Origin: Patescibacteria group bacterium
GTDB taxonomy: Bacteria > Patescibacteriota > Microgenomatia > UBA10105 > UBA927
Assembly: GCA_023379025.1 (NCBI GenBank)
Contig: JAMCTH010000004.1
Location: forward strand, 19,740 to 83,739
Length of the DNA: 64,000 nucleotides
Direction: 5' to 3'
In this document: positions 1 to 36,729 of the stretch, in pieces
How positions within the stretch are numbered: position 1 is the stretch's first letter
Layout: each line of letters begins with the position of its first letter
Notes under the pieces: generated by a model
The model's input: only the letters and a program-made list of their open reading frames with translations
Told to the model about the DNA's origin: nothing
Databases searched by the model: none
Program-made: the position numbers and the translations under genes

Positions 1-143
1 TACGCTCATATTCTCGCACCCGTCAAACGGCAAGGAAATCTCCATAAGCGGTGCAGGCGCTCTGTTCACCGAAGTGACCAACAGCCTGAGCATTTTGCAG
101 TAGCGGCCGACCCAGGGAGTAATAGCAACTATCTCCCGCCTCC

Positions 144-185
144 GATTCAACAACTTACCGCGACCGCTGTAAATCGTTGAAGCTA
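144..185 (+). promoter_or_regulatory. 42-nt conserved motif copy A (GATTCaacaa-N-CGCGACCGC-N-TTGAAGCTA)
   Basis: Near-identical to the copies at 30693-30734 and 51909-51950. Contains an imperfect palindrome TTACCGCGACCGCTGTAA. Overlaps the 3' end of the PaaX-like gene. Confidence 0.5.
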
Positions 186-932
186 ATCAGAAAGACCGAA
201 ATACTGGAGCAACATCCTGTCATCCTCAATTCTCTCCGCGAGAATATATCGCACCCTCATCGGGACGCCGTACAGTTCCCGCAAAAACTCAATCTCATCA
301 AAACACTGATACGGAGAAACGTATACACTTTTTTGAAGTTGATAGAGATTGAGTTGCCGAAGCCTTTTCCGAAAAATGTCGCGTATCTGCTTGCTTTCTT
401 CAGGAATATCAAATATTACTATTCTCCATTTCTTATCCCAATGCGTTGGTTTCCGCAAAGAAAGTGAGTCGAGCTTAAACGTGAGCGCCCGCTCCATGCC
501 ATGCTTGGTTATGTATACCGTAATTGATCCGTCGCTCTGTTTTTTCGTCGTGATATAACGTTGTTTTTCCATCTGGGCGATCCGTTGCTTTATCCTCCAG
601 GATGAAACGTCTTTTTCGTAAAGATCATACCCATGGATAAATGCCCTCCCCCGCTCTTCGGCTTCGAAAACAAAAAGCATTCCTTCTCCCGCTGCCTTGG
701 CCGCGTAACAAAGAATATCCTTCACGGAGGGAAACTTGTATGATTTATGTTGGGGAGGTGAGGAATTCTCGAAAAGCTGTTTTGCTTTATTGAGCTGTAT
801 GTTCGCAAATGGATGACCACCTCGGTTCTTACCCGACCTCTTACCCACTTTCTTACTTACCTTCCTGGCGTCACTCATACCCGAAAGATGCGAATATATA
901 TTTACTTCTTGTACTCTATCAGAAATATTCAA
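183..932 (-). CDS. PaaX-like transcriptional regulator (winged-helix N-terminus plus PaaX_C-like C-terminus)
   Basis: C-terminal stretch WDKKWRIVIFDIPEESKQIRDIFRKRLRQLNLYQLQKSVYVSPYQCFDEIEFLREL resembles the PaaX C-terminal domain. The true start may be an internal Met. Both ends of the gene are bracketed by the 42-nt GATTC-N30-GAAGCTA motif. Confidence 0.5.
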   Translation of the reverse strand: MNISDRVQEVNIYSHLSGMSDARKVSKKVGKRSGKNRGGHPFANIQLNKAKQLFENSSPPQHKSYKFPSVKDILCYAAKAAGEGMLFVFEAEERGRAFIHGYDLYEKDVSSWRIKQRIAQMEKQRYITTKKQSDGSITVYITKHGMERALTFKLDSLSLRKPTHWDKKWRIVIFDIPEESKQIRDIFRKRLRQLNLYQLQKSVYVSPYQCFDEIEFLRELYGVPMRVRYILAERIEDDRMLLQYFGLSD

Positions 933-1322: not shown

Positions 1323-2921
1323 CTAGCATGAGGGTCTCAATCCCATCATGCCATTAGGTCCGTAGTTAAATGGTATAACAGAGGTCTCCAAAACCTCTAT
1401 TGGGGGTTCGATTCCCTCCGGACCTGCTGAGAGAGAAATTGAGGCCGCGCCGGTCTGCCGGCTCTGCGCGGGTGGGGTCGCGCAGAGTGTTTTGAAGGGC
1501 TCGCGGAAAACGGCTGAGAGCCGCCGGTCTTTCAAAAAGAAGTTCGAGCCGATACGTTTGGCGAAGATTGCCAAATCTTCGCAGGCATTGTCTGCGCGCG
1601 CGATTTTATGCGCCTGAAAGGCGCTGTCTATAAATTCCTTCATGCGTTCGAGCCGTTTATTTTTCCCCGATAAATTGTCTTTCTTTTCTTCTTCCATCTG
1701 ACGCTTTACTTCTGAAAGCGTATTTTTCTTTTTCCGGTATGTTTCTTGGTCGATTGTTTGATCAAGAAGTCCATCAAGCAATACATCGAGTTTTCTGCTT
1801 ATTTCCACTAACTTTAATTCCAAAATTTGCTTTCGCTTTTCTACTCCACTCGTTTCCGATTCCGAATCGGCAACAAATTTTTGCCGCCACTCGTCCTCCC
1901 ACTCCGGCGGCAATCCCACAGAAGCAATCAAGAGACGAATCTGTTTCTCAAATTCGGAATCGGTTAGATATTTACTGAAACACGGACCGAATTTCTTTGT
2001 ACATCGGTAATATGTGTATGTGACCTTACCTCGCGTCGTGCGGTAGTATTTTGTATGGATTTCTCCTGTAATTGCTCCACCGCACTCTCCGCACCGCGCA
2101 AGTCCGACGAATGGAAAGTGATGCCCCTTAAAATGCGGCCGCTCGATCCGTATAAGCTCTGTCTGCACTTTATGAAACAAATCGCGGCTAATAATCTGTT
2201 CATGCGTGCCGTCATAATATTCGCCGAGGTGAACCATTTGACCGATATAAAATCTATTAGCAAGCATATTGCGAATGGTGTTGATATGAATGATGCGGCC
2301 GCTTTTCCTCCGAATGCCGCTATCTGCAAACATACGCGCAATATCAGTAAAAGAAACAGTACGCGTGGCAAATCGTTCAAACGATTTCTGCACGAGCGGC
2401 GCAGTCTTCGGATCAACGAGAATGGTATGTGCTTTGAGGTCATTCAGATACCCAAGTGGTGCATTATGCGGCCACACTCCGTTTCGCAATTTCTGCCGGA
2501 TGCCGCGCTTCACATTTTCCGAAAGGTTATCGACGTAATACTTAGACTGGCCGAACGCGATCGACAGCATAAATTTCCCCTGTGGTGTGTTATCAAACCA
2601 AAACGTCGGAAACTTGAGCCCTGCGAGCTTACCTGTGTCGATAAGGTAGATAATCCGACCGCCGTCTATAGAATTGCGTGCAAGCCTATCCGGATGCCAT
2701 GCGATAATACCCGCGGCCAATCCCCGTTCAATTTTACCTATAAGATCGGCAAATAGCGGACGGCCAGGTTCTTTGGCGGTTCTGGATTCGGTGATGAATT
2801 CGGAAATTTCTACTTGTTCCCGTTTCGCATATTCATTTATTTCTGCAACTTGTGCCTCTATGGATAAAACCTGCCTATCTTTCTCATCAGTCGATCTTCT
2901 GCAGTATGCGATGTATTTCAT
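1323..2921 (-). CDS. Large serine recombinase (resolvase catalytic domain, recombinase domain and zinc ribbon)
   Basis: N-terminal YCRRSTDEKDRQVLSIEAQ carries the catalytic Ser motif. WHPDRLARN follows. A C-terminal Cys cluster LARCGECGG...YYRC is present. The last ~68 codons read through repeat A' and the tRNA, so the true stop is uncertain. Confidence 0.85.
   Translation of the reverse strand: MKYIAYCRRSTDEKDRQVLSIEAQVAEINEYAKREQVEISEFITESRTAKEPGRPLFADLIGKIERGLAAGIIAWHPDRLARNSIDGGRIIYLIDTGKLAGLKFPTFWFDNTPQGKFMLSIAFGQSKYYVDNLSENVKRGIRQKLRNGVWPHNAPLGYLNDLKAHTILVDPKTAPLVQKSFERFATRTVSFTDIARMFADSGIRRKSGRIIHINTIRNMLANRFYIGQMVHLGEYYDGTHEQIISRDLFHKVQTELIRIERPHFKGHHFPFVGLARCGECGGAITGEIHTKYYRTTRGKVTYTYYRCTKKFGPCFSKYLTDSEFEKQIRLLIASVGLPPEWEDEWRQKFVADSESETSGVEKRKQILELKLVEISRKLDVLLDGLLDQTIDQETYRKKKNTLSEVKRQMEEEKKDNLSGKNKRLERMKEFIDSAFQAHKIARADNACEDLAIFAKRIGSNFFLKDRRLSAVFREPFKTLCATPPAQSRQTGAASISLSAGPEGIEPPIEVLETSVIPFNYGPNGMMGLRPSC
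1356..1426 (+). tRNA. tRNA-Trp (anticodon CCA)
   Basis: Manual cloverleaf: acceptor AGGTCCG/CGGACCT, D-arm GTTA-AATGGTA-TAAC, anticodon stem GAGGT/ACCTC with loop CTCCAAA, T-arm GGGGG-TTCGATT-CCCTC, discriminator G. No CCA is encoded. The 3' end abuts island repeat A. Confidence 0.7.
1427..1526 (+). repeat. Island repeat A' (attL arm): reverse complement of 2967-3066
   Basis: About 100 nt, perfect reverse-complement match to the left half of the central repeat block. It starts right after the tRNA-Trp discriminator, with CTG as the junction core. Confidence 0.8.
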
Positions 2922-2966
2922 ATAATTAAAAGAAATTTTTGCGGGGTCTTTCCTTCTTTTTGCTTT

Positions 2967-3172
2967 CGGCGGCTCTCAGCCGTTTTCCGCGAGCCCTTCA
3001 AAACACTCTGCGCGACCCCACCCGCGCAGAGCCGGCAGACCGGCGCGGCCTCAATTTCTCTCTCAGCAGTGATTTATGAAAAAGTTCGAACCTATTTTCT
3101 CGTTAACTCCTAGCTCGCCCCGCCTGCGGCGGGGATCGCATGGTCGGCGCGTCGCCCCCGCCCGACGCGCCT
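2967..3172 (+). repeat. Central composite repeat A|B (inverted attP-like block)
   Basis: The left half is the reverse complement of 1427-1526. The right half is the reverse complement of 7604-7714 with one mismatch. The two halves overlap at a CAG/CTG core at ~3063-3066. Confidence 0.8.
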
Positions 3173-3242
3173 GCAAACGCATCGGCTCGAAATTTTAAAT
3201 TCCAAAGACCCCGCAGAAATTTCTGTAGGTATCTTTTTTCGT

Positions 3243-3291
3243 ATTGCTAACTATAGTATGTAGAACTAAAGTTAGCAAGTGGCTATAATTC
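3243..3291 (+). promoter_or_regulatory. Candidate C-box/operator and -10 box upstream of the XRE (C-protein) gene
   Basis: Inverted repeat TGCTAACT-N15-AGTTAGCA followed by GCTATAAT, immediately 5' of 3279. Confidence 0.3.
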
Positions 3292-3509
3292 CCGTTAGAA
3301 CAATGAAAAAAGATGTCCTCATCAAATTCGGACAAAAAGTTCGCGAAGAAAGGTTAAAACGAAAACTTTCGCAAGAAGAGTTTGCCGATATTGCCGGTGT
3401 TCATCGTACATATATAGGCATGATTGAGAGAGCCGAAAAAAATATTACACTTGAAAACATCGAAAAAATAGCCAAAGCATTTAACTTTAATATCAAAAAT
3501 CTTTTTTAA
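3279..3509 (+). CDS. XRE-family HTH regulator, candidate RM controller (C) protein
   Basis: LSQEEFADIAGVHRTYIGMIERAEKNITLENIEKIAKAF matches an HTH_XRE domain. It is 76 aa and sits directly upstream of the putative REase. Confidence 0.6.
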   Translation: MAIIPVRTMKKDVLIKFGQKVREERLKRKLSQEEFADIAGVHRTYIGMIERAEKNITLENIEKIAKAFNFNIKNLF

Positions 3510-3517
3510 AAATTTCT

Positions 3518-4366
3518 ATGCTTCCTAACCCAAAATATTTAATTTCTGATAAGAGTTTTTGGGCGCATATTAAGTTTTTGTCTGAAAATTTAGGCTATTC
3601 TGACAGAGGAACCTCAAAACTAAAATCTTACACTAAAGAAGAAATTCTGAAAGTAATGCAACTAACAGGCCTAGACACTTCACACTTAACAAAAAATACA
3701 ATCCATGAAGATACTTACTTAAACACAATTGTAGGTTATTTGAACTACCGATCAAAAATTCTAGAGTCGGAAGTTGAAAAACAACTGATGACAAGAGAGA
3801 ACGCCAAGGAAATTTTTGAGGATTTGAAAAAAACATTAAAACCAAAATGTAAGCTTCCAATGAATAAACAAAGGGGTAAAAAGAAACATTACGCCTACCT
3901 GACTTGTATCGTAAACATGTTAACGGAAGCTACCCTAAAAAAGGCTACTTTTGACCAAGATCCACATTCCTTAACAATAATAACTAAAAATAAAATGCCG
4001 TTACGAACATTTACACGAAGATTTGATGGCGCATATCCAACGATACTCAATCCGTTAGCGATTTGGGAAATTAAAGAATACTACGGAACCACTACGTTTG
4101 GCAGTAGAGTGGCAGATGGTATATACGAATCAATCCTTGACGGAGAAGAATTATCTGAATTAAAGGAGAATGAACATATAGAAGTATTTCACTATTTGAT
4201 GGTTGATGATCATTTCACTTGGTGGATCAAAGGAAAATCATATCTTTGTAGAATAATTGACCTATTGCATATGGGGTTTGTAACTGAGGCAATATTTGGA
4301 AGAGAAGTATTAACTCGCTGGCCAATAGTTGTTGAAAGTTGGAAAAAAATCAGTTTACCACGTTAA
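3518..4366 (+). CDS. Putative type II restriction endonuclease, assigned by context
   Basis: Nine-nt gap after the C-protein gene and convergent with the Dam-family MTase. RRFDGAYPTILNPLAIWEIKEY gives a plausible PD-(D/E)xK arrangement (D ... EIK). No recognisable family beyond that. Confidence 0.35.
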   Translation: MLPNPKYLISDKSFWAHIKFLSENLGYSDRGTSKLKSYTKEEILKVMQLTGLDTSHLTKNTIHEDTYLNTIVGYLNYRSKILESEVEKQLMTRENAKEIFEDLKKTLKPKCKLPMNKQRGKKKHYAYLTCIVNMLTEATLKKATFDQDPHSLTIITKNKMPLRTFTRRFDGAYPTILNPLAIWEIKEYYGTTTFGSRVADGIYESILDGEELSELKENEHIEVFHYLMVDDHFTWWIKGKSYLCRIIDLLHMGFVTEAIFGREVLTRWPIVVESWKKISLPR

Positions 4367-5263
4367 AAGCAATCTCTCTTTAACGAATTCTCCATCCATA
4401 TTTTCTCCGGATTTCTGAAAACGTTTCAGCATGGAATGCCCATTATCTATAAATAATTCACGCTTAAACAAGTCTAACGGAAACTCAAAACTTAACACTT
4501 TATTTCCAGACTTTTTTGTGCCGTCGATTGACAAAGCCACCTTAGCTCCCTTTCTTACACAATCTTCAATCGCTGTAAAAAGATCTTTTAACTTAAAAGA
4601 TTGAGCGCCATATAGAATTGCTTGGCTATCTACATATGGTGGGTCGCAATATATTATATCCCCTTTTTCGGCTAAACGCATTGTTTCTCGATAGTCTGCA
4701 TGAAGAAACTTTGTATTTTTAACTCTGGAATTCCAGATGGCAACTCTATTTTCAAATGACTCTGGGGGTACTGGTTTGTGAGGTCCAATTGGAGTACTAA
4801 TTTTCCCTTCTTTTGTAAAACGCATGACACCACCATAACAAGTTCTTGAAATGAACAATAAATCAAGAGGATTCGGGTGAGCGTTATAGCTGTTTTTTAC
4901 TTTTTCGTAATGAGACTTTCGATCGGCTACAAATTGATTCCAATTTAAACTATAACTCTCAACTAATTTATCCGGAAAGTTTTGCAACAATTCCATCAAC
5001 TCAATTAAGGGCTTAAGCATATCACCAGCAATTGCTTTAGTTGGATTAAAAGTCGCCAAGACGGCCCCTGTCCCAACAAAAGGTTCTATGTATTTGTTAT
5101 AGTCTGCAGGAAACATTGAAACTATTTTTTCTGCAAATCTATGCTTATTACCCACCCACTTAAGTAATTGTGGCGGTGATCCAATAACTAGTGGTGTATC
5201 ATCAAACATTCTATTTTGAGTATATGTGGTAAATGACGAGATTGGAAGGACAAAAGGATTCAT
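4355..5263 (-). CDS. N6-adenine DNA methyltransferase, Dam/D12 class
   Basis: LKWVGNK, EPFVGTGAV (motif I) and IYCDPPY (motif IV) line up with E. coli Dam LKWAGGK / EPFVGAGSV / YCDPPY. Confidence 0.85.
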   Translation of the reverse strand: MNPFVLPISSFTTYTQNRMFDDTPLVIGSPPQLLKWVGNKHRFAEKIVSMFPADYNKYIEPFVGTGAVLATFNPTKAIAGDMLKPLIELMELLQNFPDKLVESYSLNWNQFVADRKSHYEKVKNSYNAHPNPLDLLFISRTCYGGVMRFTKEGKISTPIGPHKPVPPESFENRVAIWNSRVKNTKFLHADYRETMRLAEKGDIIYCDPPYVDSQAILYGAQSFKLKDLFTAIEDCVRKGAKVALSIDGTKKSGNKVLSFEFPLDLFKRELFIDNGHSMLKRFQKSGENMDGEFVKERLLLTW

Positions 5264-5266
5264 ACT

Positions 5267-5866
5267 TCAATTATTTCTTAATAAACCACAAAATACTCCT
5301 CTAATTTCGAGCTCTTTTGGATAGATATTAGAAAGTGTTTTATTTCGAGGCTCTAAATAGACTTTTCCATTTCTATTCCTAAAAACTTTGAGCGTGGCGC
5401 CCTTTTCCGTAATTGCGACTACTCTGTCTCCATCCTGTGCAGTTTTCTGATGCCGGACGACTATAACGTCGCCATCAAGGATATTATCATCCTGCATGCT
5501 TGTCCCTTTTACTTCAAGCGCATAATAATCACCCTTCCTGCTTATCATGGACAATGGTACATCGATCGGCTCCGGATTCTCGATCGGCTCTATTGGATTG
5601 CCAGCCGCTATAATGCCGAGCTTGAATATACGGCCAAACTGCTGAACAGTCGTACTGATACCGCGGGCTATATTATCTGTTTTTTGAAGAAATCCCCTCG
5701 TTTCAAGCTCTTCAACGAAATGCTGGGCAGTACTGACGGATTTTCGGAAATTTCCAGCAATCTCATGGAGCGAAGGTGAATACCCTTTGTTTTTGACGAA
5801 ATTTTTGATGAAATCCAACACCTGCTTCTGCTTCGGTGTGATTGTCATGGAAGTATTGACTTTCAT
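5267..5866 (-). CDS. LexA-like / S24 peptidase-family repressor
   Basis: N-terminal wHTH (KQKQVLDFIK...) is followed by an S24 domain GDYYALEVKGTSMQDDNILDGDVIVVRHQ with a downstream Lys. Transcribed divergently from the TIR-like gene. Confidence 0.75.
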   Translation of the reverse strand: MKVNTSMTITPKQKQVLDFIKNFVKNKGYSPSLHEIAGNFRKSVSTAQHFVEELETRGFLQKTDNIARGISTTVQQFGRIFKLGIIAAGNPIEPIENPEPIDVPLSMISRKGDYYALEVKGTSMQDDNILDGDVIVVRHQKTAQDGDRVVAITEKGATLKVFRNRNGKVYLEPRNKTLSNIYPKELEIRGVFCGLLRNN

Positions 5867-5925
5867 ACGCAGTTGTCCTATTATTAATTTATTACTTTTT
5901 TATGACTTTTGTCAATACTCAAAAT
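5867..5925. promoter_or_regulatory. Divergent promoter/operator region between the S24 repressor and the TIR-like gene
   Basis: Short AT-rich intergenic stretch containing a TGAC-N4-GTCA palindrome (atgacttttgtcaat) and a TATTGAC...GTCAATA inverted pair. Confidence 0.3.
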
Positions 5926-6520
5926 GAATGACCAATACCTATCACCGCTATTATCTCAAATTTTGAACGTGCCTGAAAAGCACAAGGTATTCGTAAGCTT
6001 CCATCACGAAGACCAAGCATATCGTGACCAATTTGATCAATTTTATAGTCAATATTTCATAAGCAAGTCTGTGGATTTTGGCGACATAGAACCGGACAAT
6101 AGTGACGAATATATCAAACGACTGATTCAAGAAGAGCACATCTCCGATACCAGCGTAGTTGTGGTTCTATATGGAGCAAGCACATGGAAAAGAAAACATA
6201 TCGACTGGGAGATGTCAGCGGCGCTTCAAGAAAAAGTCGGCGGACATTCTGGCTTAATACTCATGATCCTTCCCACATTCCCCGTCCGCCCGTACAACGC
6301 ATACGGTCAGTACGACGAATCGTTCCTGCATCCGTATTTTCATCCGAGAGCTTCTGCGAATCTGAAATCGGGGTATGCGACTCTATTATATTGGCCGGGC
6401 TTATATCCCAGCCTGCCTGCCGTACAAATGACTGATGCAATCCAAAACGCGTTTGACCGGCGAATAACCCATAAGAAACTTATTGACAATTCTCACCCGC
6501 AATATCAAAATAACCGCTAA
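5909..6520 (+). CDS. TIR-like domain protein (DUF1863 / ThsB-like)
   Basis: KVFVSFHHEDQAYRD and SVVVVLYGASTWKRKHIDWEMSAALQEK parallel the ThsB blocks RVFFSFHYQD and SVTCVLIGSQTFNRRWVRYEIMKSIEKG. Confidence 0.65.
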   Translation: MSILKMNDQYLSPLLSQILNVPEKHKVFVSFHHEDQAYRDQFDQFYSQYFISKSVDFGDIEPDNSDEYIKRLIQEEHISDTSVVVVLYGASTWKRKHIDWEMSAALQEKVGGHSGLILMILPTFPVRPYNAYGQYDESFLHPYFHPRASANLKSGYATLLYWPGLYPSLPAVQMTDAIQNAFDRRITHKKLIDNSHPQYQNNR

Positions 6521-6522
6521 GC

Positions 6523-7152
6523 ATGAACTTGAGTAATTTATTACGAATTTATGTCGATCATTACGCGCTAAACATAGAAATAGGTCTTATCCCTATCGGT
6601 ATCGCGATCGGTCTTGTTGTGATCCTTGTATTAAAAAAAGCTTTTAACTGGAATTTTGGTTTCAATGAAGTTGAACTTAATATAAATCTGGGCGGAATTG
6701 GAAATGTAAAAATCACGCCCAATCATGAGGTAAGGCAAATTGCTCATAAAGCATGGACAGAATTGGTTACGCGAAAGGCCGGTCTTCTATTTGAGGCGGA
6801 ACACGATGTAATCATCGAGGTGTATAACTCGTGGTATCAACTATTTAAAGAAATCAGACTGATGATAAGGAGCGTCCCGGCATCCCAGTTAAAAAATAAC
6901 GACACGAAACGCTTGATAGAAATTCTGGTAAAATCACTCAATCTTGGAATGAGGCCGCACTTAACAAAATGGCAAGCGAGATTTAGACGATGGTATGAGG
7001 CAGAATCTAAGAAGCCTAAAAACGCAGAAAAAAGCCCACAAGATATTCAAAAAAAATATGCGCGTTATGATGAACTCGTGGCAGACTTAATAAAAATAAA
7101 CGGCCAGCTTATTGAATATACTGAAGAACTGAAAAAACTATCCCTAAAATAG
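6523..7152 (+). CDS. Single-pass membrane protein of unknown function; putative partner/effector of the TIR-like protein
   Basis: Three-nt gap after the TIR gene suggests translational coupling. One TM helix (IGLIPIGIAIGLVVILVL), then a ~165-aa predicted soluble domain with a K/E-rich tail. No recognisable family. Confidence 0.5.
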   Translation: MNLSNLLRIYVDHYALNIEIGLIPIGIAIGLVVILVLKKAFNWNFGFNEVELNINLGGIGNVKITPNHEVRQIAHKAWTELVTRKAGLLFEAEHDVIIEVYNSWYQLFKEIRLMIRSVPASQLKNNDTKRLIEILVKSLNLGMRPHLTKWQARFRRWYEAESKKPKNAEKSPQDIQKKYARYDELVADLIKINGQLIEYTEELKKLSLK

Positions 7153-7603
7153 GCGGCGTCCGCCGCCCCCGCTCCCCCGGATAGTACTAGCTGAAAAGCG
7201 TGCGTCTCCGCACGCTCTATCCACGACCCGAACGTGGTGCGCAGCGTGCTCAAATAATTTCTTTGCGCGAAGCGCTAACCTATAAGTGGGCGCGCAAGCC
7301 GTACGAACGCTGGACAGGGATACGATATGAGCGGCGGGGGCGAAAAGCGGATCATCCCGTCGACTGCAGGACGTACTAAATCAAAATAGACTACGGTAGA
7401 GACTGAAAAAGTAAATAAACCACCTGAACATTGGCGAGGCGCCCCCTAGGGCGCCCTCTCGCACAAAGGCGGGGTCGCCGCCATCCGCTCTTGTTTTGGG
7501 TGGGAGGGTGATACGGAATCAAGAAAGCATTGGCTTTGTGTTAATATTAATCCATCAATGCTCGCTCCCTAGCGAGAACGCGCGCGCAGACAGTGCCTTA
7601 GGC

Positions 7604-7714
7604 GCGTCGGGCGAGGGCGACGCGCCGACCATGCGATCCCCGCCGCAGGCGGGGCGAGCTAGGAGTTAACGAGAAAATAGGTTCGAACTTTTTCATAAAT
7701 CACTGCCATAACAA
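7604..7714 (+). repeat. Island repeat B' (attR arm): reverse complement of 3063-3172
   Basis: About 110 nt with one mismatch. It ends at ...aatcaCTG|ccataac. Confidence 0.8.
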
Positions 7715-10972: not shown

Positions 10973-13900
10973 TCAACGAACCACTGTCATCGCTGATGCC
11001 GTTGCCATATAGGAAAATGTTTGCTGTGTATATGCTTGGATTGTTTGATCATTCGCAATTGCCGTAAAAACAGGATCGTTCGGATAAATCGAATAACCGT
11101 CAATGCCATTACTGTCCTGAAGCTGACTAAATTGCCACAAGAGCACTCCGCCATTGTCCTTCGTGAATTTTTTTACTGCTGACGCAAGCGCCTGTGCGCG
11201 GCCGGCAAACTGTTCCGGAGTACAGCTCGGTGTTCCTGATGCAGAAGAACAGCTGGGCTCACAGTCTTTACAGACTGGCGGTCCATTACCGTGGTCTCCC
11301 AGTTCCCCGACATAAAATACCTTTCCAAGGCTTTGTGTCACTGCCTGAGCCTGCTGGCATTCACGGACACTCTCCGGACTATCGAGATATGCATGGCACG
11401 TCCCGGCGGAGATAAACGGTATCTGCATAATTTTTGTGTACTGAACCCCTCCGTCGGGGTAGGCAAGCACGTTGGTATTAAAACCCATAAGACCGGGAGA
11501 GATTAACACAGTCGGATTACTCTCGTGAATGATTTGCGCGGCATCGGTCATAAGAGCAATTTCTGCCGTACCGCATTCAGCCGTATCGCAGTGGGGCTCG
11601 TTAAACAGTTCAACAGCCAAGATTCGTTTGTTATATACGGTATTGGCCAAAACCGAATTTGAAATCTGTTTGATATACGGAATATAACTATCGTACGCTC
11701 CCTTCTGAAACCATTTCATGCGGCTTCCGGTACATGCGGGCGGATCCGTACACTGATACTGGGGATCGATCTCACCGAAATTGGCGAGGGAGATAATAAA
11801 CTTCATATCCGGTGCGTCGGCCGGTACATGATCCAGTACCGCCAGGATGGATTGTTCATCGAAACCGAATATCCGTACCACGGTAACTCCCTGCGCATGA
11901 AGATACGAAAGGGTTTTTGCCACTTGTTCCGGCGACCCTTTTCCGAGATTAAACGAGTTGAATCCGATAAAGTTGTTTTGTGTTACGGTAATGGCAGTGC
12001 CGGACGCTTTCGTTTGCGGAGAAGGACATGGTTCCGATTCACTACCGCATTGTATAATCGCATGGTTCGTGCTTCTGACGTCCGCAACATACCCCGGAAG
12101 ATAACCTTTCCCACCTCTTAAACCGCTTGACGAAGTAACAGGAAGACGAATGATGCGCTGAATAGACGTCACTATGGCATTCCATACCGATGCCAGAAAT
12201 TCCCAACCGCGCCGGAATATCCCCGACAGTGCGTTCCGTAACCCGTCAAGGAACCCCGGACCCTCTGGCTTTTCTTTGACATTTTTAAGCGGCATCGTTA
12301 CCGGTGTCGGGGTGGGTGTCACGGATGACAAGCCAGGGATAAGCGTCGGGGATGCATACGGTTCTGAACCGGTAGGACTCGGAAGAAGTGCAATATTGCC
12401 CCGGTAGAGGTAGGGTGTCGGGGTCGGAGCTCTTGCAACCGGAGGGTAATAATAGGTGTTTTGTCCGGTTTGATACGGAGTAGGGGTTGCGGTTGGAGCG
12501 GGTGTCGGCGTTGCCGTCGGAACGGGCGTCGGTGTTGCGGTAGGCGTCGGTGTTGGTGTAGGGGTGGGAGTTGCGGTCGGAATTGGCGTGGGTGTTGCCG
12601 TCGGAACGGGAGTGGGCGTTGCGGTAGGCGTCGGTGTTGGTGTAGGGGTGGGAGTTGCTGTCGGCAAGAGATATACCAGTGCCGGACCTCCTCCTATCGG
12701 CCCGGAAACCGCCGCGGAAGCTTGTGCCTGTATTCCGCCGCTTGATTGATTGGTCCCTCCGCCGCCGGACGACGAGGACGGCGATGAAGGCGTTTGCGGA
12801 GCCACAGATGATGCTCCCGGAGCCGGAGCCGGCGCAGGCGTCACATGAGGAAGATTCACCAAACCGGACAAACCAACCGTCGGCCAGGTAGGCAGGGAAT
12901 AGCCTGTTTCAGCGTTCTGAGGCAGAAGCGCACCAGTCACTGACTGCGCACTTCCCAATGACTGTGCCCGGGCAGTTTGGACGATCGTCTCCAGAATATT
13001 TTCTCCCTGGCCGATATATTCCCTGCCGTTAAACACCTTGGTCTTGTAATAGTCATAGAGGAGCGGAAAATCGTTTTTGAGCTGCTCGGGATGGACGACA
13101 TACTGGGTACCCGCACAGGCGAAGAATTCCATCCTTCCGCCAACGCTGCAGTTATAATCATGACTCAGAACTGTGTTCGCCGAATAGGCGGCTGCCTTCC
13201 CGTCACCCGGACGGAACTCGATATTATATGTTGCCAAAATCGCCCGGTAATCGCTTCTCTCACTGGCTAACCCCACCATCGTCCCTCCCTGATTTGGCGC
13301 GGATAATACCGCATACCGCTGCATATCCCAGGTATGAATGAGCTCATGGATGATCGCGGAAGCATAAGATTCTCTATAATAATTATCGTCAGGGCGTAAC
13401 GGCCATGGAATCATGATTGAGGAGTTTCCCCATGCCTCGCCGCCGAGATATCCCTGATCTACATTCGAGCGCATCATGAGATCAATTAACCGGCCGGTCG
13501 AGAGATTTGGCGGGAGGATAGCAAGCGTATTATCGAGGATATTGAGCTCATCCGGCGTCCAGTAACCTCTTGTCGCCAAAACCTTTATATTGTATTTTGC
13601 ATCCAACGCCAATTGCTGCGCTACCGTTGAATAAGCCAGTTGGGCTATTTCCCCCGCACGCTGTACATCGGTAATGATGGTAAACGTATAATCCGATCCG
13701 CATTCTAGTGTATGTCCGGAGGTATCGAGCATATAATCACCCGGCAGGCACTCACCGTTCCATTTCTTCTCGGGCGTACAGGTTACGACCCGGGTCTTAC
13801 TCGGGAGTACTTCCATATCCCCGGTTGTGCATGTTTGGTTAGCCAATTCGGCCAGTCGGGCTTTGTCTGCCGCATCAATTGCTGCGATGGCACTGTTCCT

Positions 13901-16900
13901 TTGTAAATCCTGGGCAGAAAGACCGCTGAGTCTCAGGCGTATAGCATCAACCGGAGGCAGTATGTTGTCGCAAAGCCATTCCGATACCGGTTCACCGGTA
14001 TTCAGACAATAGGCTTCCGACGCTCCCGCAATACCAACAGTTATACCGCCTGCTAATAAAAGTTTTCTTCCGTTGATGGCAGGTAATTGTATCGCGCCGC
14101 CTCTTCCCGTATTGGAGGCCAATTCTTCCGCCGTCAGGGTAAAGACATCCGGATCCCGTCCCGGGTTAAGGATGCTTATCCTCAGGCTGGACGATGCCGG
14201 ATTTTGAGCGCTCGTGCGGGCGGTATTGATGGCTTGCACCGCCTCCTGATCATTCATAGGATGGGCGACTATTCTGTTCACTTCCTTGCCGTTTTCATCA
14301 AACACCGTGATGGTCACTTCCGATCCGGTTCCGATCGGGTGCTCCTCCCGCACGAGCCCACCGAGATAGCGTTTTTCTATGGTGAGGACGGGATTTTCTA
14401 CAGGAGGCTGTTCTTTGATGCCGAAGATACGCCGTATCGTCTGCCCTGGGGTTCTCCCGGCAAGTTCCTGACTACTGAGAGGCGCCACCGTTGTAACCGT
14501 CTGACCTTCTGCTGGTGTCAAATGCATGGGGCTTTCAACTGCTCCTGCAGGATGCGGTCCGGGAAGGATGGTAATCCTGTCTCCCTGAAATCGGACCGGA
14601 ATTTCTGATCCGTCAATGCGTTGAATGATAATCTGGTCACCGTAGGATACCGGAGTCGTACCCAGGGATATTTCTGTCCGGACAATGTTTCCGCCGGGAT
14701 CCCTTGTCATCCGGAAGAGTTTATCTTCAGGGAGAAATCCGACTTCCGGCTGATCTCCTATGAGCACTCTTGTACCGGGTCGTGGAGTAAATGTAGTTAC
14801 GGGGTGTTCCATCCCAACCAATTCCTGCTGCACGGCATCTACCCGCGCCCGCGCGATATCGAGCCGGGATTGCGCGGCATTCCTTGCCTCGGCGGTAGTA
14901 GTACCCGTATAGGCATTGGTGGCATCGACGAGCTCACGCTCGGCCGCCTCCACTTCAGCCTGTACGGCCGCAAGTGTTCTGGTTGCTGCACCTGTCGGAA
15001 CCCCGCCGGTGCCGCCCAACAATGTCGGGCGCTCATTCCAGAGTGTGCGGAGCCGACCAAGAATTCCGCCGGATCCGGCTCCTCCGGCAGTTTCCATCGG
15101 TACCAGACCGGACTGCGCAAGAGATGCGGCAGCGGCCTGCTGTCGGGCTTCTCGAGTAATCAAATCAACCAACTTTTGGTTCTCTTGTGCAATTTTGGAC
15201 CTCAAAACCGGAGCTACCGGCTTCCCTGCCGCTTCTGCAGTTGTCTGCTCGGTAATAAGCTCTGATAGATTCTTTCTAGTAGCTTCCAAATCCGCCTCCG
15301 TTTGGGCAATTAATGCATTAAGATCTGAAGAACTTGTTGTAACTACGGGTTCAACTGCTGGTGCTGTACCGGTTACAGGTACTCCTCCTGCTGTCGTTGG
15401 CGTCACGACACTTACCCCCCTGCCTCCGGGTGTCTCAAACCGGAGAGAGCCATCCCGGGAAAGGATCTGGATCGAGTCGACAGAGGCGGTCGGGACATTG
15501 GCAACGGTTGGGGTGGTCCCGACCGGAAACTCCCGGGTAGCGCCATTGGTAAACCGGATGACCACGCGGTCTCCGTCTGCCAAGGCCGGAGAGGTAATTG
15601 CATTGCCACTCGCGTTGGTCGTTCTCACGGTTTGCCCCGGACGGAAGTCAGAAATCGTTGCACCGGAAACAGTTTCACCACTTGGTTGAAGTGCTGGTTC
15701 TCCAGAATAAAGCACATTTGCTTTAATTTTATTTGCGATTTCTTCACTCTGATAAAATAATTGCGTTTGTGGATCATAAAAATACCCACCTGCTTCTTTT
15801 CCTAGCTGTATTGGATCAATCGGTCTGCCTTCTGGAAGTTTCCCTTCCATTATTTGATAGACTTCTGCATATGTTAATGGTCTGTACTGTCCTACTGTCG
15901 GAAATGCTTGATCTTGAAATTGACTTGTAATAGCAAGCATTTGATCTTCTACTTGCACAGCTGTTGTTTCGGCACTAACAGGAATTTCAAATCTATAAAC
16001 ATTATCAGCTTCGAGATATCTCGCACCTAGGCGTACAGCAATAGCTTTATTCTCTGCAGATAATCCGTCTGCTGGTATCTCTAAATACGCTACACTACCT
16101 ACGTTTTTACCATTAGCACTGGTCACGGATGTAGGAATATTCTTATCCCATAAGTCTCTTGTTGGTCTTAACAATGGCGCTTCAATGATATCATCGAGTT
16201 GTGCTCTAGAACGAATAATATCGGCACTTACTTCTATTGCGGGCACATCCCTAACCAGTAAGTTATCTGCAAATGGTCTGGATCCCAAAGAATTGAAAAC
16301 TAGTTGTGTTTGTGTGCTTGGTGTCACGACGCTCACGCCTCGTCCACCTGGGGTCTCAAACCGGAGGGAGCCATCCCGGGAAAGGATCTGGATCGAGTCG
16401 ACAGAGGCGGTCGGGACATTGGCAACGGTTGGGGTGGTCCCGACCGGAAACTCCCGGGTAGCGCCATTGGTAAACCGGATGACCACGCGGTCTCCGTCTG
16501 CCAAGGCCGGAGAGGTAATCGCGTTGCCACTCGCGTTGGTCGTTCTCACGGTTTGCCCCGGACGGAAGTCGGAGATTACATCTCCGGCTGTCGGACGGAC
16601 CGAACTGGTCACCGGCTGGACCGCCGGTGGTCGTGGCGGTGTGGTACCGAGTCCGGAGCGGGCATATGAAGCTGCGGCTGCCTCCTGACGGGTCAACTGC
16701 GACGAAAGATCCGTTGCTTGCTGCTCCAGTCGTGCGAGTTGCTGCTCAAGCGCGGGATCTACAGTCTGTCCCGCAGTACGAAGCGCCGTAATCTGACGAT
16801 CCAGATCTCCTGCGGCAACCCGTACGCTTGCTAAATCATATTGTGTCTGCCGTACCAAAGAGCTTATCATAGCCTCTGATGAATCCAGTGGCGGCACGCC

Positions 16901-35590: not shown

Positions 35591-36135
35591 AACTCTCGCT
35601 GACACCCTGATACGTTGATACTCTGACACTATCATCACGTATCAATGTGTCAATGATCTTTCGGGTCCCTTGATTGTAGCGGCGGGGAAAAGCCTTTGTC
35701 AATCTCACCCCTTGATTTTTGCCGTCCGCACCGTATAATAAAACCCTTCTGTCCGTTTTTCCCGTGCATGAGCGCTAGGATCTATGCTTCCCTGCGGCTC
35801 CATACGGGCCGGAAACGGATGCACATTTACAGGGCAAAACGAACAAACGAGAAGGCAATACAAGCTTGTGAGGTGACGCGGGAGGCGAACTTTTTCGAGC
35901 ACCGTCATGCGCCGGGACTGGACGCGGGTCCTGTCTCGGTTTTTCCCCCAAGAAAACCCACAAGGGGACCCCTTCTTGGGGGTCCCCCGAACCGAGCCAC
36001 CCGCCAGGAAGCGCCTGACGGATGCGCAAAAAAAGTTTGCCGACCAAAGCGGCGCCGATGCGTTGCCGGGAGTGAAAACGGCAAGGATATGAACTGATCA
36101 CAAACAGTGGTCGGCTGATCTCTTTGCCGTCACAT

Positions 36136-36209
36136 TCCTCGGTAGCTCAATTGGATAGAGCAGGGGGCTGTTAACCCCTATGTTCCAGGTTCGAATCCTG
36201 GCCGAGGAG
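36136..36209 (+). tRNA. tRNA-Asn (GTT)
   Basis: Manual fold: acceptor TCCTCGG/CCGAGGA, D-arm GCTC...GAGC, anticodon stem GGGGG/CCCCT with loop CTGTTAA, T-arm CCAGG-TTCGAAT-CCTGG. Confidence 0.7.
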
Positions 36210-36283
36210 TAGTTCGACTGCCTCCGGTAACCCCAACAAAATAACCCGGCAAGGTATTTATTGGGCGCATCGGAGGCAGGAAT

Positions 36284-36355
36284 GCGGGAGTAGTTCAGCG
36301 GCAGAACGCGCGTCTCCAAGACGCGAGGTCCTGGGTTCGAGTCCCAGCTTCCGCT
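36284..36355 (+). tRNA. tRNA-Trp (CCA)
   Basis: Acceptor GCGGGAG/CTTCCGC, anticodon stem CGCGT/ACGCG with loop CTCCAAG, T-arm CTGGG-TTCGAGT-CCCAG. Canonical position upstream of secE. Confidence 0.7.
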
Positions 36356-36383
36356 TTTTATAGTCGGTTCGTGCTGATCTTTT

Positions 36384-36457
36384 GGGGAGGAAGTTCATAT
36401 GGCTTGAACGCGAGGCTTTCAACCTCGAGCTTGCGGGTTCAAATCCCGTCCTCCCCA
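36384..36457 (+). tRNA. tRNA-Glu (TTC)
   Basis: Acceptor GGGGAGG/CCTCCCC, anticodon stem CGAGG/CCTCG with loop CTTTCAA, T-arm GCGGG-TTCAAAT-CCCGT. Position 8 is A, which is atypical. Confidence 0.6.
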
Positions 36458-36463
36458 TTTCGT

Positions 36464-36535
36464 GCCCCCGTAGCTCAGGTGGCAGAGCACCTGCTTCTAA
36501 GCAGAAGATCGCGAGTCCGAGTCTCGCCGGCGGCG
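36464..36535 (+). tRNA. tRNA-like, Arg(TCT)-like, with an atypical anticodon arm
   Basis: D-arm TAGCTCAGGTGGCAGAGC is canonical. T-arm GCGAG-TCCGAGT-CTCGC. The anticodon region CCTGC-TTCTAA-GCAGA has only a 6-nt loop. Acceptor has one C:C mismatch. Confidence 0.4.
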
Positions 36536-36651
36536 TTCGAGGAGGTGGGTCGCAGAAACGAGTAGCCCGTAGCTTAACGAGCTTCCTAGGAGCTTACTCG
36601 CTTCTCACTCGCCTCCTCGATAATTTCGTTTGTTCGCTTGTGGTCGTACGT

Positions 36652-36725
36652 CGGGGTGTAGCGCAGCCTGGCAGCGCGGTCCGCTTGGTACGGACAGGTC
36701 GTAGGTTCAAATCCTACCGCCCCGA
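36652..36725 (+). tRNA. tRNA-Pro (TGG)-like
   Basis: Acceptor CGGGGTG/CGCCCCG, anticodon stem GTCCG/CGGAC with loop CTTGGTA (position 37 = T, atypical), T-arm GTAGG-TTCAAAT-CCTAC. Confidence 0.5.
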
Positions 36726-36729
36726 CCTC

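What the first reader, a model, noticed from the sequence alone, without database searches (positions are those of the whole stretch)
1356..7714. Site-specific island at the 3' end of tRNA-Trp, with attL/attR arms plus an internal inverted attP-like copy
Three repeat blocks are related by reverse complementarity. Block 1427-1526 is the reverse complement of 2967-3066 (perfect, ~100 nt). Block 7604-7714 is the reverse complement of 3063-3172 (one mismatch, ~110 nt). The central block is therefore A|B, with the two halves meeting at a CAG/CTG core. The junctions read ggacCTG|ctgagaga on the left, which is the tRNA discriminator region followed by arm A'. On the right they read aaatcaCTG|ccataac, which is arm B' followed by chromosome. 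This is what integration of attP = aaatcaCTGctgagaga into attB = tRNA-Trp...ggacCTGccataac would produce, and the tRNA 3' end is regenerated. A large serine recombinase gene (1323-2921) sits right next to attL and reads through it. The anomaly is the internal block, which is a complete attP in inverted orientation sitting between the recombinase gene and the cargo. It splits the element into two arcs, each bracketed by ~100-bp perfect inverted repeats. One explanation is a recombinase-mediated invertible switch. Others are a composite of two elements, or a cointegrate/resolution intermediate.
Basis: seen in the sequence. Interest (0 to 1): 0.7.

Follow-up and report, generated by a model that had tools for sequence, protein, structure and literature searches.

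The report
Serine-integrase island with spare attP
A 6.3-kb mobile defence island sits at the end of a tRNA-Trp gene and, like most of the several dozen relatives examined in Patescibacteria genomes, keeps a second, intact, inverted copy of its own attachment site, a design I could not find described for serine integrases.

Summary
The arms are 1424-1526/2967-3069 (103 nt, 100%) and 3066-3172/7600-7706 (107 nt, 1 mismatch). They share a 4-bp core, CTGC, with the 3' end of tRNA-Trp.

It is an island (1424-7706) integrated by a large serine recombinase (LSR, 1323-2921, minus strand). Cargo is a type II restriction-modification system with its controller, a LexA-like repressor, and a ThsB-like TIR protein with a membrane partner.

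The internal inverted attP is not a one-off rearrangement.
- Two 87%-identical relatives with different cargo have the same three sites.
- In 53 species-level loci (rec 42-60% identical), 48 have the recombinase gene flanked by ~100-nt inverted repeats.
- 38 abut an antisense tRNA gene, covering 12 isotypes.
- 25 of 36 have the second, abutting repeat pair.

The half-sites follow LSR rules. The P half-site mimics the tRNA T-arm but lies 4-5 nt further from the core.

The internal attP lies in a symmetric divergent control region and is recombination-proficient in relatives. Almost all chromosomal copies share one arrangement, and rare alternatives exist. The composite and cointegrate readings are rejected. 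The switch reading is partly supported. Why the second attP is kept is inferred, not shown.

The parts
1356..1426 (+). tRNA-Trp (CCA), the target gene. Its T-arm GGTTCGA and acceptor 3' end form the left (B-type) half of attB.
   Evidence: ARAGORN; Rfam tRNA 66.9 bits. T-arm motif starts 19 nt from the core.
1424..1427 (+). attL core CTGC (crossover probably at TG).
   Evidence: The 4 nt are shared by all three sites.
1424..1526 (+). a' arm, the P' arm of the attP copy that was used for integration. It encodes the last ~34 conserved-length codons of the recombinase on the minus strand. On the plus strand it carries a GC hairpin followed by TGTTTT just after the tRNA.
   Evidence: Inverted repeat I2, 103 nt, 100%; sequence.
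1542..1550 (-). p2, an extra copy of the half-site 9-mer GGCTCGAAC inside the recombinase gene (codons G-S-N of GSNFF), 120 nt from the attL core.
   Evidence: Third codon positions are invariant in 29/29 homologues. The motif sits at about +120 in 13 or more loci.
1646..1654 (-). p4, the same 9-mer in another reading frame (codons R-L-E-R here, W-L-E-P in most relatives), 224 nt from the core.
   Evidence: Motif scan: a peak at +220 to +225 in most loci.
1323..2921 (-). Large serine recombinase gene (532 aa as integrated). The last 35 codons are antisense tRNA-Trp. Across an intact attP the ORF would end ...SLSA-VIYEKVRTYFLVNS.
   Evidence: Pfam PF00239, PF07508, PF13408; A118 integrase C-terminal domain hit; 89% identical to P0001; tail analysis.
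2931..2951 (-). 21-nt motif AAAGACCCCGCAAAAATTTCT, 10 nt upstream of the recombinase start codon. Left arm of the bracket around the internal attP.
   Evidence: Inverted repeat I4. A family-wide bracket is present in 40/49 loci, consensus GAAGAAAAACGCAAAAATTT.
2967..3172 (+). Internal intact attP in inverted orientation: A arm 2967-3069, core GCAG 3066-3069, B arm 3066-3172 (reverse-complement P half-site TGATTTATGAAAAAGTTCGAACC followed by GC hairpins).
   Evidence: Inverted repeats I1 and I2. Conserved in L002 and L084 and family-wide.
3184..3192 (+). p3, an extra half-site-like 9-mer GGCTCGAAA on the cargo side, 121 nt from the internal core. It lies within a ~36-nt paralogue of the recombinase 3' coding sequence.
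   Evidence: Inverted repeat I6. Motif at +105 to +147 in about 20 of the 30 loci listed (17 within +105 to +127).
3204..3224 (+). Right arm of the 21-nt bracket, upstream of the cargo operon.
3279..5263 (.). Type II restriction-modification module: controller HTH 3279-3509 (+), restriction endonuclease 3518-4366 (+), D12 adenine methyltransferase 4355-5263 (-).
   Evidence: Pfam. PADLOC: Control_protein 1e-21, REase_II 8e-67, MTase_II 1e-64.
5267..5866 (-). LexA-like S24 repressor. It is also present in relative L084.
   Evidence: Pfam; 83% DNA identity to L084.
5909..7152 (+). ThsB-like TIR protein (5909-6520) and a 209-aa membrane protein (6523-7152).
   Evidence: PF08937 3.5e-17; PADLOC ThsB hits.
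7153..7599 (+). 'G' region: a conserved GC-rich non-coding module and candidate structured RNA. Its last 20 nt (7579-7598) repeat recombinase codons ARADNA (1583-1602) in inverted orientation.
   Evidence: Conserved in 10 other loci, always next to the outer arm except in the recombinase-less L003. Covariation. No Rfam match. Inverted repeat I7.
7600..7706 (+). b' arm (P arm) and attR core CTGC (7703-7706). P half-site GGTTCGAACTTTTTCATAAATCA begins 23 nt from the core.
   Evidence: Inverted repeat I1.

Best explanation
Window 1424-7706 is an integrated copy of a mobile element from a very large, Patescibacteria-wide family driven by a large serine recombinase (Rec).

Integration (shown by sequence logic). 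Rec joined an attP (b'|a') to an attB. The attB is made of the T-arm and acceptor 3' end of tRNA-Trp plus the downstream flank. The shared core is CTGC, with crossover probably at TG. This produced attL (tRNA|a') and attR (b'|chromosome) and left the tRNA intact. The attP copy that was used overlaps the 3' end of rec, so in the integrated state the ORF runs on into antisense tRNA.

The second attP (shown by comparison). The element is built with a second, inverted copy of the whole ~210-bp attP block, which stays intact after integration. It lies between rec and the cargo, at the centre of a quasi-symmetric control region from which rec and the cargo diverge. The order is: 21-nt motif, arm, core, arm, extra half-site, 21-nt motif. 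The free form is therefore inferred to be a circle split into a recombinase arc and a cargo arc by two long inverted repeats.

Activity of the internal copy (shown in relatives). In two genomes the recombinase arc is flanked by two opposed isoacceptor tRNA genes. That is the product expected if the internal attP recombined with a second attB. A few loci carry the arcs in other orientations.

Proposed function (inferred).
- The internal attP is a Rec-binding site in rec's own divergent control region, so it can regulate rec and the cargo.
- It also makes both arcs invertible.
- The nearly universal arrangement, with rec converging on and reading into the tRNA gene, is the quiescent resting state.
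- Arrangements in which rec reads into a whole attP are active or transitional states.
- The arms are kept near-identical by gene conversion or repeated recombination.
For: - Domains and catalytic serine.
- Exact arms and common core.
- Close relatives: L002 and L084 are about 87% identical in DNA. Both have 108-nt and 103-nt arm pairs that are 100% identical within each element, both sit at tRNA-Trp, and both carry unrelated cargo.
- Family survey: 48/53 loci have the recombinase gene flanked by inverted repeats (median 107 nt, 97.6% identity). 38 have an antisense tRNA abutting the distal arm, covering 12 isotypes. 25/36 have the second abutting pair. Repeat-1-only loci still show a complete internal attP.
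- Half-site geometry: the P half-site motif starts 23-24 nt from the core and the tRNA T-arm motif 19 nt, an offset of 4 (13 loci) or 5 (7 loci). This matches the 5-bp zinc-ribbon-motif shift reported for LI integrase (PMC3783163).
- Control-region layout: the 21-nt bracket is present in 40/49 loci. The cargo ORF nearest the internal site points away from it in 26/33 arcs, p=0.0013.
- Extra half-site copies with invariant synonymous positions.
- Fixed arrangement: no locus has the second repeat pair downstream of rec, and G lies next to attR in 10/10 recombinase-bearing loci. About 80 of 93 homologues read into antisense tRNA.
- Live internal attP and alternative arrangements: L049, L068, L069; L087; L089 and L085; L003.
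Against: - No empty attB and no unambiguous circular junction was recovered. The collection scans were limited.
- Canonical serine integrases recombine only attP x attB (or attL x attR with a directionality factor) and need no auxiliary DNA (PMC3783163). Rec-catalysed flipping between attL or attR and the internal attP would therefore be unorthodox. RecA acting on 100-nt repeats could explain the rare isomers instead.
- The quiescent-state and regulatory roles are inferences from layout only. There are no expression or binding data.
- The short contigs L085 and L089 could be mis-joins across a 100-nt repeat.
- Arm identity may be inflated by assembly collapse.
- Only a ~50-bp site would be needed for Rec binding, so the ~100-nt arms are not explained by function alone.
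Confidence: 0.55

Rival explanations
1. Recombinase-driven phase switch, Hin-like. Rec routinely inverts the recombinase arc and/or the cargo arc between the three sites, and the main purpose of the layout is to toggle gene expression.
For: - Each arc is bounded by inverted sites and rec lies inside one arc.
- Alternative orientations exist: L087 has a flipped recombinase arc. L069 has the 5' end of rec next to the tRNA. L003 has the cargo arc in the opposite sense. L089 and L085 show rec reading into an intact attP.
Against: - About 45 of 49 chromosomal loci, 10/10 G modules, and every p3 motif detected in the 30 loci scanned are in one orientation. A working phase switch would give mixed consensus orientations.
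- Rec is a large serine integrase, not a small invertase with an HTH and enhancer.
- attL x attP and attP x attR pairings are not known substrates (PMC3783163).
Confidence: 0.2
2. Passive by-product. An ancestral inverted duplication of the attP region persists by RecA-mediated gene conversion and has no function. The rare isomers are neutral or mildly harmful accidents.
For: - The arms are far longer than a serine-integrase site.
- Within-element identity with between-element divergence (92-96% in the close trio) is the signature of concerted evolution.
Against: - The layout is retained across recombinases only 42-60% identical, whose arms are unrelated in sequence.
- The internal copy always keeps a complete P half-site.
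- The internal copy is bracketed by conserved motifs and an extra half-site.
- A functionless 200-bp repeat that can cause chromosomal inversions (L049, L068) should be lost in streamlined genomes.
Confidence: 0.1
3. 2-micron-like replicon. The free circle replicates using the conserved structured G region as an origin or primer RNA. Rec-mediated inversion between the two attP copies amplifies copy number.
For: - The inferred circle is split into two arcs by long inverted repeats that each contain the recombination target.
- G is the only conserved non-coding module and is more conserved than rec in L006.
- The layout of contig L089 fits a 2.7-kb circle.
Against: - No replication protein is present.
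- There is no coverage evidence.
- attP x attP is not a known serine-integrase reaction.
- Most loci have no detectable G homologue.
Confidence: 0.06
4. Composite of two elements, or an unresolved cointegrate.
For: Tandem chains of family elements do occur (L087, L036, L053).
Against: - The recombinase arc contains nothing but rec. The cargo arc has no recombinase.
- The identical three-site layout recurs in dozens of independent genomes with different tRNA targets and different cargo.
Confidence: 0.03
5. Assembly artefact caused by mixing integrated and excised forms.
For: Many contigs of relatives break at the arms (10 start within 20 nt of the arm). Logan contigs of this element break near the repeats.
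Against: - Unique sequence links to both sides of every arm.
- The same structure appears in independent assemblies made with different assemblers, including complete MAG chromosomes (CP055307.1, CP174360.1, OZ246414.1).
- The orientation is non-random.
Confidence: 0.01

Closest known systems
Serine-integrase prophages and islands (phiC31, Bxb1, A118/LI integrase)
   Same: - Resolvase, recombinase and zinc-ribbon domain architecture.
- attP x attB logic with a short common core.
- P-type half-site motif displaced 4-5 nt outward relative to the B-type half-site (5 bp in LI integrase, PMC3783163).
- Recombinase gene adjacent to attP.
   Different: - A second, inverted, intact attP is retained inside the integrated element.
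- The arms are ~100 nt, not ~25 nt.
- Extra half-site copies sit at fixed distances, two of them inside the recombinase ORF.
- The ORF crosses the crossover point, so its C-terminal tail changes on integration.
- No directionality factor was identified.
tRNA-targeting genomic islands, including tycheposons of Prochlorococcus (bioRxiv 10.1101/2020.12.28.424599; comparison from my own knowledge, the paper was listed but not read)
   Same: - Insertion at a tRNA gene with the tRNA kept intact.
- Integrase gene at the tRNA-proximal end.
- Highly variable cargo on a conserved backbone.
- Tandem arrays.
   Different: The inverted internal attachment site and the repeat-flanked integrase gene are not features of those islands, as far as I know.
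Hin/Gin/Cin/Pin invertible segments
   Same: A recombinase gene inside (Hin) or next to a segment bounded by inverted crossover sites. Serine chemistry.
   Different: - Those are small invertases with an HTH domain and a Fis-dependent enhancer, and both orientations coexist.
- Here the enzyme is a large serine integrase, the element is mobile, and one orientation dominates.
Yeast 2-micron plasmid FLP/FRT
   Same: A circle divided into two unique arcs by long, identical inverted repeats. Each repeat contains the recombinase target, and the recombinase gene lies in one arc.
   Different: The 2-micron plasmid uses a tyrosine recombinase and is an autonomous eukaryotic plasmid whose inversion serves copy-number amplification. 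No replication function is shown here.
Tn3 / gamma-delta res site
   Same: The recombination site lies in the intergenic region between divergently transcribed genes, where the serine recombinase also acts as repressor. There are accessory binding sites beside the crossover site.
   Different: res sites act in direct repeat to resolve cointegrates, and the enzyme is a small resolvase.
Engineered inverted-attP landing pads for cassette exchange (e.g. MiMIC; bioRxiv 10.1101/2020.08.13.249656)
   Same: A cassette flanked by inverted phiC31-type attP sequences, so that it cannot be looped out.
   Different: That design is man-made. Here only one flank of each arc is a whole attP and the other is attL or attR.

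Membership tests
Large serine recombinase (serine integrase) integrative elements | N-terminal resolvase-type catalytic domain with nucleophile serine | tested here: met
   PF00239 E=1.4e-19 over residues 4-150. S10 is invariant in 105 aligned homologues.
Large serine recombinase (serine integrase) integrative elements | C-terminal recombinase domain plus zinc-ribbon domain | tested here: met
   PF07508 2e-15 and PF13408 5.5e-07. A118 integrase C-terminal domain, 4kis, E=3e-4. The coiled-coil insert was not tested explicitly.
Large serine recombinase (serine integrase) integrative elements | attL and attR are reciprocal hybrids of attP and attB and share only a short core | tested here: met
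   tRNA|a' and b'|chromosome with the common core CTGC. The intact b'|a' sequence is present as the internal copy. Cores of 1-15 nt are seen in 30 relatives.
Large serine recombinase (serine integrase) integrative elements | The same recognition motif in attP and attB half-sites, shifted about 5 bp towards the centre in attB | tested here: met
   GGYTCGA starts 23-24 nt from the core in the P arm and 19 nt in the tRNA. The offset is 4 in 13 loci and 5 in 7 loci. Reference: PMC3783163.
Large serine recombinase (serine integrase) integrative elements | Simple sites of 40-50 bp with no auxiliary DNA sequences | tested here: inconclusive
   The arms are about 100 nt. Extra copies of the half-site 9-mer lie at about +120 and +224 (inside rec, with invariant synonymous positions) and at about +105 to +127 beside the internal site. 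Whether they are needed is unknown.
Large serine recombinase (serine integrase) integrative elements | Excision controlled by a separate recombination directionality factor | not tested
   No candidate was recognised in the conserved backbone, which holds only rec, the arms and the non-coding G region.
Large serine recombinase (serine integrase) integrative elements | Empty attB and/or a circular attP junction observable in populations | tested here: inconclusive
   No empty site was recovered. L089 and L085 carry rec reading into an intact attP, which fits a circle, a flipped isomer or a mis-join.
Serine DNA invertase switches (Hin/Gin/Cin/Pin) | Small (~190 aa) serine recombinase with a C-terminal HTH | tested here: not met
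   The protein is 532 aa with recombinase and zinc-ribbon domains.
Serine DNA invertase switches (Hin/Gin/Cin/Pin) | Segment bounded by inverted crossover sites and found in both orientations | tested here: inconclusive
   Inverted sites are present. One orientation is found in about 45/49 loci. Exceptions are L069, L087 and L089.
2-micron-type inverted-repeat plasmids | Tyrosine recombinase (FLP) and autonomous replication | tested here: not met
   The recombinase is of the serine type. No replication gene is present in the element. Replication itself cannot be tested here.
tRNA-gene-targeting genomic islands | Insertion at the 3' end of a tRNA gene that leaves a complete tRNA, with the integrase gene at the tRNA-proximal end and cargo that differs between relatives | tested here: met
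   A full-length tRNA-Trp model match. rec abuts the tRNA. Cargo differs among the window, L002, L084 and L003.
Tn3-family res/resolvase modules | Crossover site with accessory sites in a divergent control region, acting in direct repeat with a small resolvase | tested here: not met
   The layout resembles it: divergent genes in 26/33 arcs and bracket motifs in 40/49 loci. But the sites are inverted and the enzyme is a large serine recombinase.

The most novel reading that the evidence does not exclude
The family runs a self-contained directionality system that needs no directionality factor. Three att-type sites, extra half-sites embedded in the recombinase's own codons, and a dedicated ~440-nt structured RNA (G) together decide whether the element integrates, locks or leaves. 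Recombination itself rewrites the enzyme's C-terminal tail. In the integrated state the tail is antisense T-arm with the motif G-x-E-P. Opposite a whole attP it is a P-arm-encoded tail of the type YEKVRTYF. Arc inversion moves promoters and accessory sites between the two attP copies.
Probability: 0.15. Interest if true: 0.9.

Novelty: new variant of a known kind. Interest (0 to 1): 0.72.

Why it matters
**Challenge to the simple-site view.** Serine integrases are valued in genome engineering because they are thought to need only two short sites and, for reversal, one extra protein. This work points to a very large natural family: more than 7,800 related proteins, with relatives confirmed at 573 of 599 candidate stretches in a species-level genome collection. 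In it the element keeps a second live attP, 100-nt homogenised arms, half-site copies written into its own coding sequence, and often a conserved structured RNA. If these parts control direction or activity, that would be a new principle for serine recombinases.

**A source of natural site pairs.** The family may supply many natural attP/attB pairs built on one trick. A constant P arm mimics the universal tRNA T-arm, and a variable P' arm goes with the tRNA that is targeted.

**Relevance to Patescibacteria.** For these ultra-small bacteria the elements appear to be a main vehicle for defence genes. They can cause chromosomal inversions. They are also a systematic cause of contig breaks in metagenome-assembled genomes.

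Tried and rejected
**Searches that found little**
- The scan of viral contigs with a 37-nt B-arm pattern found nothing.
- Exact-protein look-ups of the window's recombinase and of the upstream PaaX-like protein found no record.
- Look-ups of cargo and flank proteins returned only short Logan contigs that break near the repeats.
- Rfam found nothing in the island except the tRNA, even at E<=10 for the G region.
- Five literature searches found no natural description of this layout, only engineered inverted-attP pads.

**Apparent exceptions that dissolved**
- L005 and L070 seemed to have the second repeat pair downstream of rec. These are opposed tRNA genes. L046's low-identity downstream repeat is not an abutting pair either.

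**Ideas considered and dropped**
- That the distal end of the a' arm is a second crossover point next to p2. The homology actually fades gradually into the flanks, so there is no sharp boundary.
- That single-stranded DNA folds the two copies into one double-stranded attP, as in CTX phage. Concerted double-strand cleavage by a serine recombinase would then break the chromosome into hairpin ends.
- That homologous recombination between two elements could create the tRNA-rec-tRNA loci L049 and L068. It cannot place tRNA junctions on both sides of rec.
- Composite, cointegrate and assembly-artefact readings (see the rival explanations).

Full report
**1. Observation**

The two inverted-repeat pairs are real.
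- Pair 1: 1424-1526 with 2967-3069 (103 nt, 100%).
- Pair 2: 3066-3172 with 7600-7706 (107 nt, one mismatch).

The inner arms overlap by 4 nt (GCAG, 3066-3069). The same tetranucleotide, CTGC, ends tRNA-Trp at 1424-1427 and ends the right arm at 7703-7706. Each arm occurs only twice in the window, with none in 100 shuffles. tRNA-Trp is at 1356-1426.

**2. Anatomy in the window**

I use these names: a' = 1424-1526, A = 2967-3069, B = 3066-3172, b' = 7600-7706.

The order is: tRNA | a' - rec (minus strand) - A|B - cargo - G - b' | chromosome.

- rec (1323-2921, 532 aa) has resolvase, recombinase and zinc-ribbon domains. It matches the A118 integrase C-terminal domain distantly.
- Its last 35 codons are antisense tRNA. 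The 34 codons before them are the a' arm.
- Cargo is a controller protein, a type II endonuclease and a D12 methyltransferase, then a LexA-like repressor, then a ThsB-like TIR protein with a membrane protein.
- Positions 7153-7599 ('G') are GC-rich and non-coding.

**3. Close relatives**

- L002 (recombinase 89% identical, DNA 87%) and L084 sit at tRNA-Trp in other genomes. Both have the same two abutting arm pairs, each 100% identical within its own element. Arm identity between elements is 87-96%: 92-96% for both arms of L002 and the B/b' arms of L084, and 87% for the A/a' arms of L084.
- Their cargo is unrelated to the window's. L002 carries DUF3800 and a 341-aa protein. L084 carries a C5 methyltransferase, Vsr and DUF2130, among others.
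- The conserved backbone is rec, the arms, about 55 nt beyond B, and G.
- L003 is a recombinase-less derivative at tRNA-Trp. Its order is tRNA | a' - 80 nt of the rec 3' end - G reversed - other cargo - b' | chromosome.
- L003 equals the window type with the cargo arc flipped, followed by a deletion between 20-nt repeats. Those repeats are 1583-1602 and 7579-7598, and they are direct only in the flipped state.

**4. Family survey**

- The recombinase has more than 7,800 homologues.
- A scan of one genome per species confirmed relatives at 573 of 599 candidate stretches. Nearly all are Patescibacteria or MAGs from binning projects with doubtful labels.
- Of 53 loci with enough flank, 48 have rec flanked by inverted repeats (median 107 nt, 97.6% identity).
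- 38 have a tRNA gene abutting the arm at the rec 3' end. It is always antisense to rec, and 12 isotypes are represented.
- 25 of 36 with at least 3 kb upstream have the second pair abutting the first (median 100 nt, 99.1% identity).
- Cargo arcs range from 556 to 8,705 nt. Recombinase arcs range from 1,318 to 1,554 nt.
- Loci without a detectable second pair still show a complete attP (A arm plus reverse-complement P half-site) upstream of rec.
- About 80 of 93 homologue tails contain the antisense T-arm peptide G-[FIVL]-E-P or a close variant (66 by the strict pattern).

The three-site layout is therefore a design of the family. It is not an accident of this locus.

**5. Site logic**

- The P half-site is conserved across the family whatever the tRNA target, roughly GTTCGAAnTTTTTC..AAA.. 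and then the core. The P' arm varies with the target.
- GGYTCGA starts 23-24 nt from the core in the P arm and 19 nt from the core in the tRNA T-arm. The offset is 4 nt in 13 loci and 5 nt in 7 loci.
- This is the attP/attB relationship described for LI integrase, where the zinc-ribbon motif is shifted 5 bp toward the centre in attB (PMC3783163).
- The window's site has local dyad symmetry, TCAC-TG-CTGA. This suggests TG as the crossover dinucleotide (inference).

**6. Further conserved cis features**

- **p2 and p4.** The 9-mer GGCTCGAAC recurs inside rec at about +120 from the attL core (codons GSN of the invariant GSNFF) and at about +224 in a different frame (WLEP or RLER). At p2 the third codon positions are invariant in 29/29 sequences, for example TCG for Ser every time. 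This argues for selection on the DNA.
- **p3.** A third copy lies at +105 to +127 on the cargo side of the internal site in 17 of 30 loci.
- **21-nt bracket.** A motif with consensus GAAGAAAAACGCAAAAATTT brackets the internal attP in inverted orientation in 40/49 loci. One copy is just upstream of rec and one is on the cargo side.
- **Cargo direction.** The first cargo ORF points away from the internal site in 26/33 arcs (p=0.0013).
- **G region.** G has homologues in 10 other loci. It lies just inside the outer arm in the same orientation in every recombinase-bearing locus, and is reversed only in the recombinase-less L003. In L006 it scores 469 bits although the recombinase there is only 55% identical.
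- **G structure.** An 8-sequence consensus structure has 89.8% of cells paired, against 39-52% when the partners are slid. Nine pairs show double changes. The covariation score exceeds all 500 shuffles. There is no Rfam match.

**7. Arrangements**

The standard arrangement has the rec 3' end at the tRNA, and p3 and the motif beside the internal site, with G beside attR. It holds in about 45 of 49 loci. No locus has the second pair downstream of rec.

Exceptions:
- **L069.** An intact tRNA-Ala lies next to the 5' side of rec, and rec reads into a whole attP.
- **L049 and L068.** The recombinase arc is flanked on both sides by tRNA|a' junctions belonging to two opposed isoacceptor genes (Glu-TTC/Glu-CTC and Ser-CGA/Ser-TGA). 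This is the product expected from internal attP x second attB, a canonical serine-integrase inversion.
- **L087.** A chain of two elements at tRNA-Lys with alternating attP orientations, in which the inner recombinase arc is flipped.
- **L089 and L085.** Low-coverage contigs from two groundwater samples in which rec reads through the arm into a whole attP. In L089 that attP is followed by p3, the motif and cargo. These fit a circle, a flipped isomer or a mis-join.
- **L003.** See section 3.

**8. Interpretation**

Shown:
- This is an LSR island integrated by attP x attB at tRNA-Trp.
- The second inverted attP is a conserved part of the element.
- It is embedded in a symmetric divergent intergenic region.
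- In relatives it has recombined with a second attB.
- One arrangement strongly dominates.

Inferred:
- The free form is a circle with two inverted attP copies.
- The internal copy acts as a Rec-binding control site and makes both arcs invertible.
- The dominant arrangement, with rec convergent with a strongly transcribed tRNA gene and its ORF ending in antisense tRNA, is the quiescent state.
- The arms are homogenised by gene conversion.

Whether flips are made by Rec or by RecA is open. Standard serine integrases do not pair attP with attL or attR (PMC3783163).

**9. Rivals**

- A balanced phase switch is contradicted by the orientation bias.
- A functionless relic is contradicted by conservation of the layout across arms that are unrelated in sequence, and by the associated motifs.
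- A 2-micron-like replicon is not excluded but has no positive evidence.
- The composite, cointegrate and artefact readings are rejected (section 4).

**10. Comparison and novelty**

By domains and site logic the element is a member of the serine-integrase integrative elements and of the tRNA-targeting islands. It differs in several ways:
- the retained inverted attP;
- long, identical arms;
- half-site copies at fixed distances, including inside the ORF;
- an ORF that crosses the crossover point;
- a co-travelling structured non-coding module.

In layout it recalls Hin segments, the 2-micron plasmid, the Tn3 res control region and engineered inverted-attP pads, but it belongs to none of them. 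Five full-text searches found no description of this natural layout. I rate it a new variant of a known kind.

**11. Caveats**

- No empty site or proven circle was found.
- Arm identity may be inflated by assembly collapse.
- The orientation of an arc between 100-nt repeats relies on reads or read pairs that span the arm. The strong non-randomness argues that assemblers did resolve it.
- Functional statements about regulation and quiescence rest on layout alone.

Noticed in passing
window 7153-7599 (+); homologues L002 159-604, L084 4478-4940, L003 3744-4210, L006 4947-5403, L004 624-1054, L022 5704-6217, L039 4614-5031: A ~440-nt GC-rich non-coding module with long-range stems and covarying hairpins. 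It has no Rfam match. An AT-rich -10-like box precedes a conserved GGCGGC start. It is a candidate new structured RNA that travels with this recombinase family.
   Followed up: partly
proteins P0002-P0017 (~865-920 aa); L053 sites: Sixteen protein clusters listed together in the homologue search, fifteen of 865-921 aa and one of 718 aa; only P0002 was aligned. P0002 is a full recombinase fused in frame to a second copy that lacks its first ~115 residues. This suggests that one family member has inserted into the conserved FGQSKYY-coding region of another's recombinase gene, so the elements may target each other.
   Followed up: partly
window 139-194, 928-961 (inverted), 30688-30743, 51904-51959: A dispersed 34-56-nt repeat (CAACAAnTTAnCGCGACCGCTGT.AAT..TTGAAGCTA). 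Two copies flank the PaaX/Cas2-like gene at 183-932 in inverted orientation. It may be an operator or a small mobile unit.
   Followed up: no
window 36135-36727: A cluster of five tRNA genes (Asn, a second and quite different tRNA-Trp, Glu, one with an unreadable anticodon, Pro). The second tRNA-Trp lacks the CTGC core and is not occupied.
   Followed up: partly
window 12453-12668 and 15392-15655 / 16313-16576: A G-rich array with 6/12/18/24-nt periodicity, and a 264-nt direct repeat (94% identity) 921 nt apart. Neither was examined.
   Followed up: no
window 5267-5866 (-) and L084 6696-7298: The LexA-like S24 repressor is conserved (83% DNA identity) between two elements whose restriction-modification systems are unrelated. 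It may belong to the element's own regulation rather than to the cargo.
   Followed up: no
L012, L014, L016, L017 (site tables): Elements targeting four different tRNAs (Arg-TCG, Leu-CAG, Arg-GCG, Tyr-GTA) share nearly identical P arms but have different P' arms and cores. This suggests a modular split between a constant T-arm-mimic half and a target-specific half.
   Followed up: partly
L011, L018, L033, L042, L054, L058, L059, L064, L071, L072: Ten contigs of genome assemblies begin within 20 nt of the arm upstream of the recombinase gene. These elements are a systematic cause of contig breaks in Patescibacteria MAGs.
   Followed up: partly
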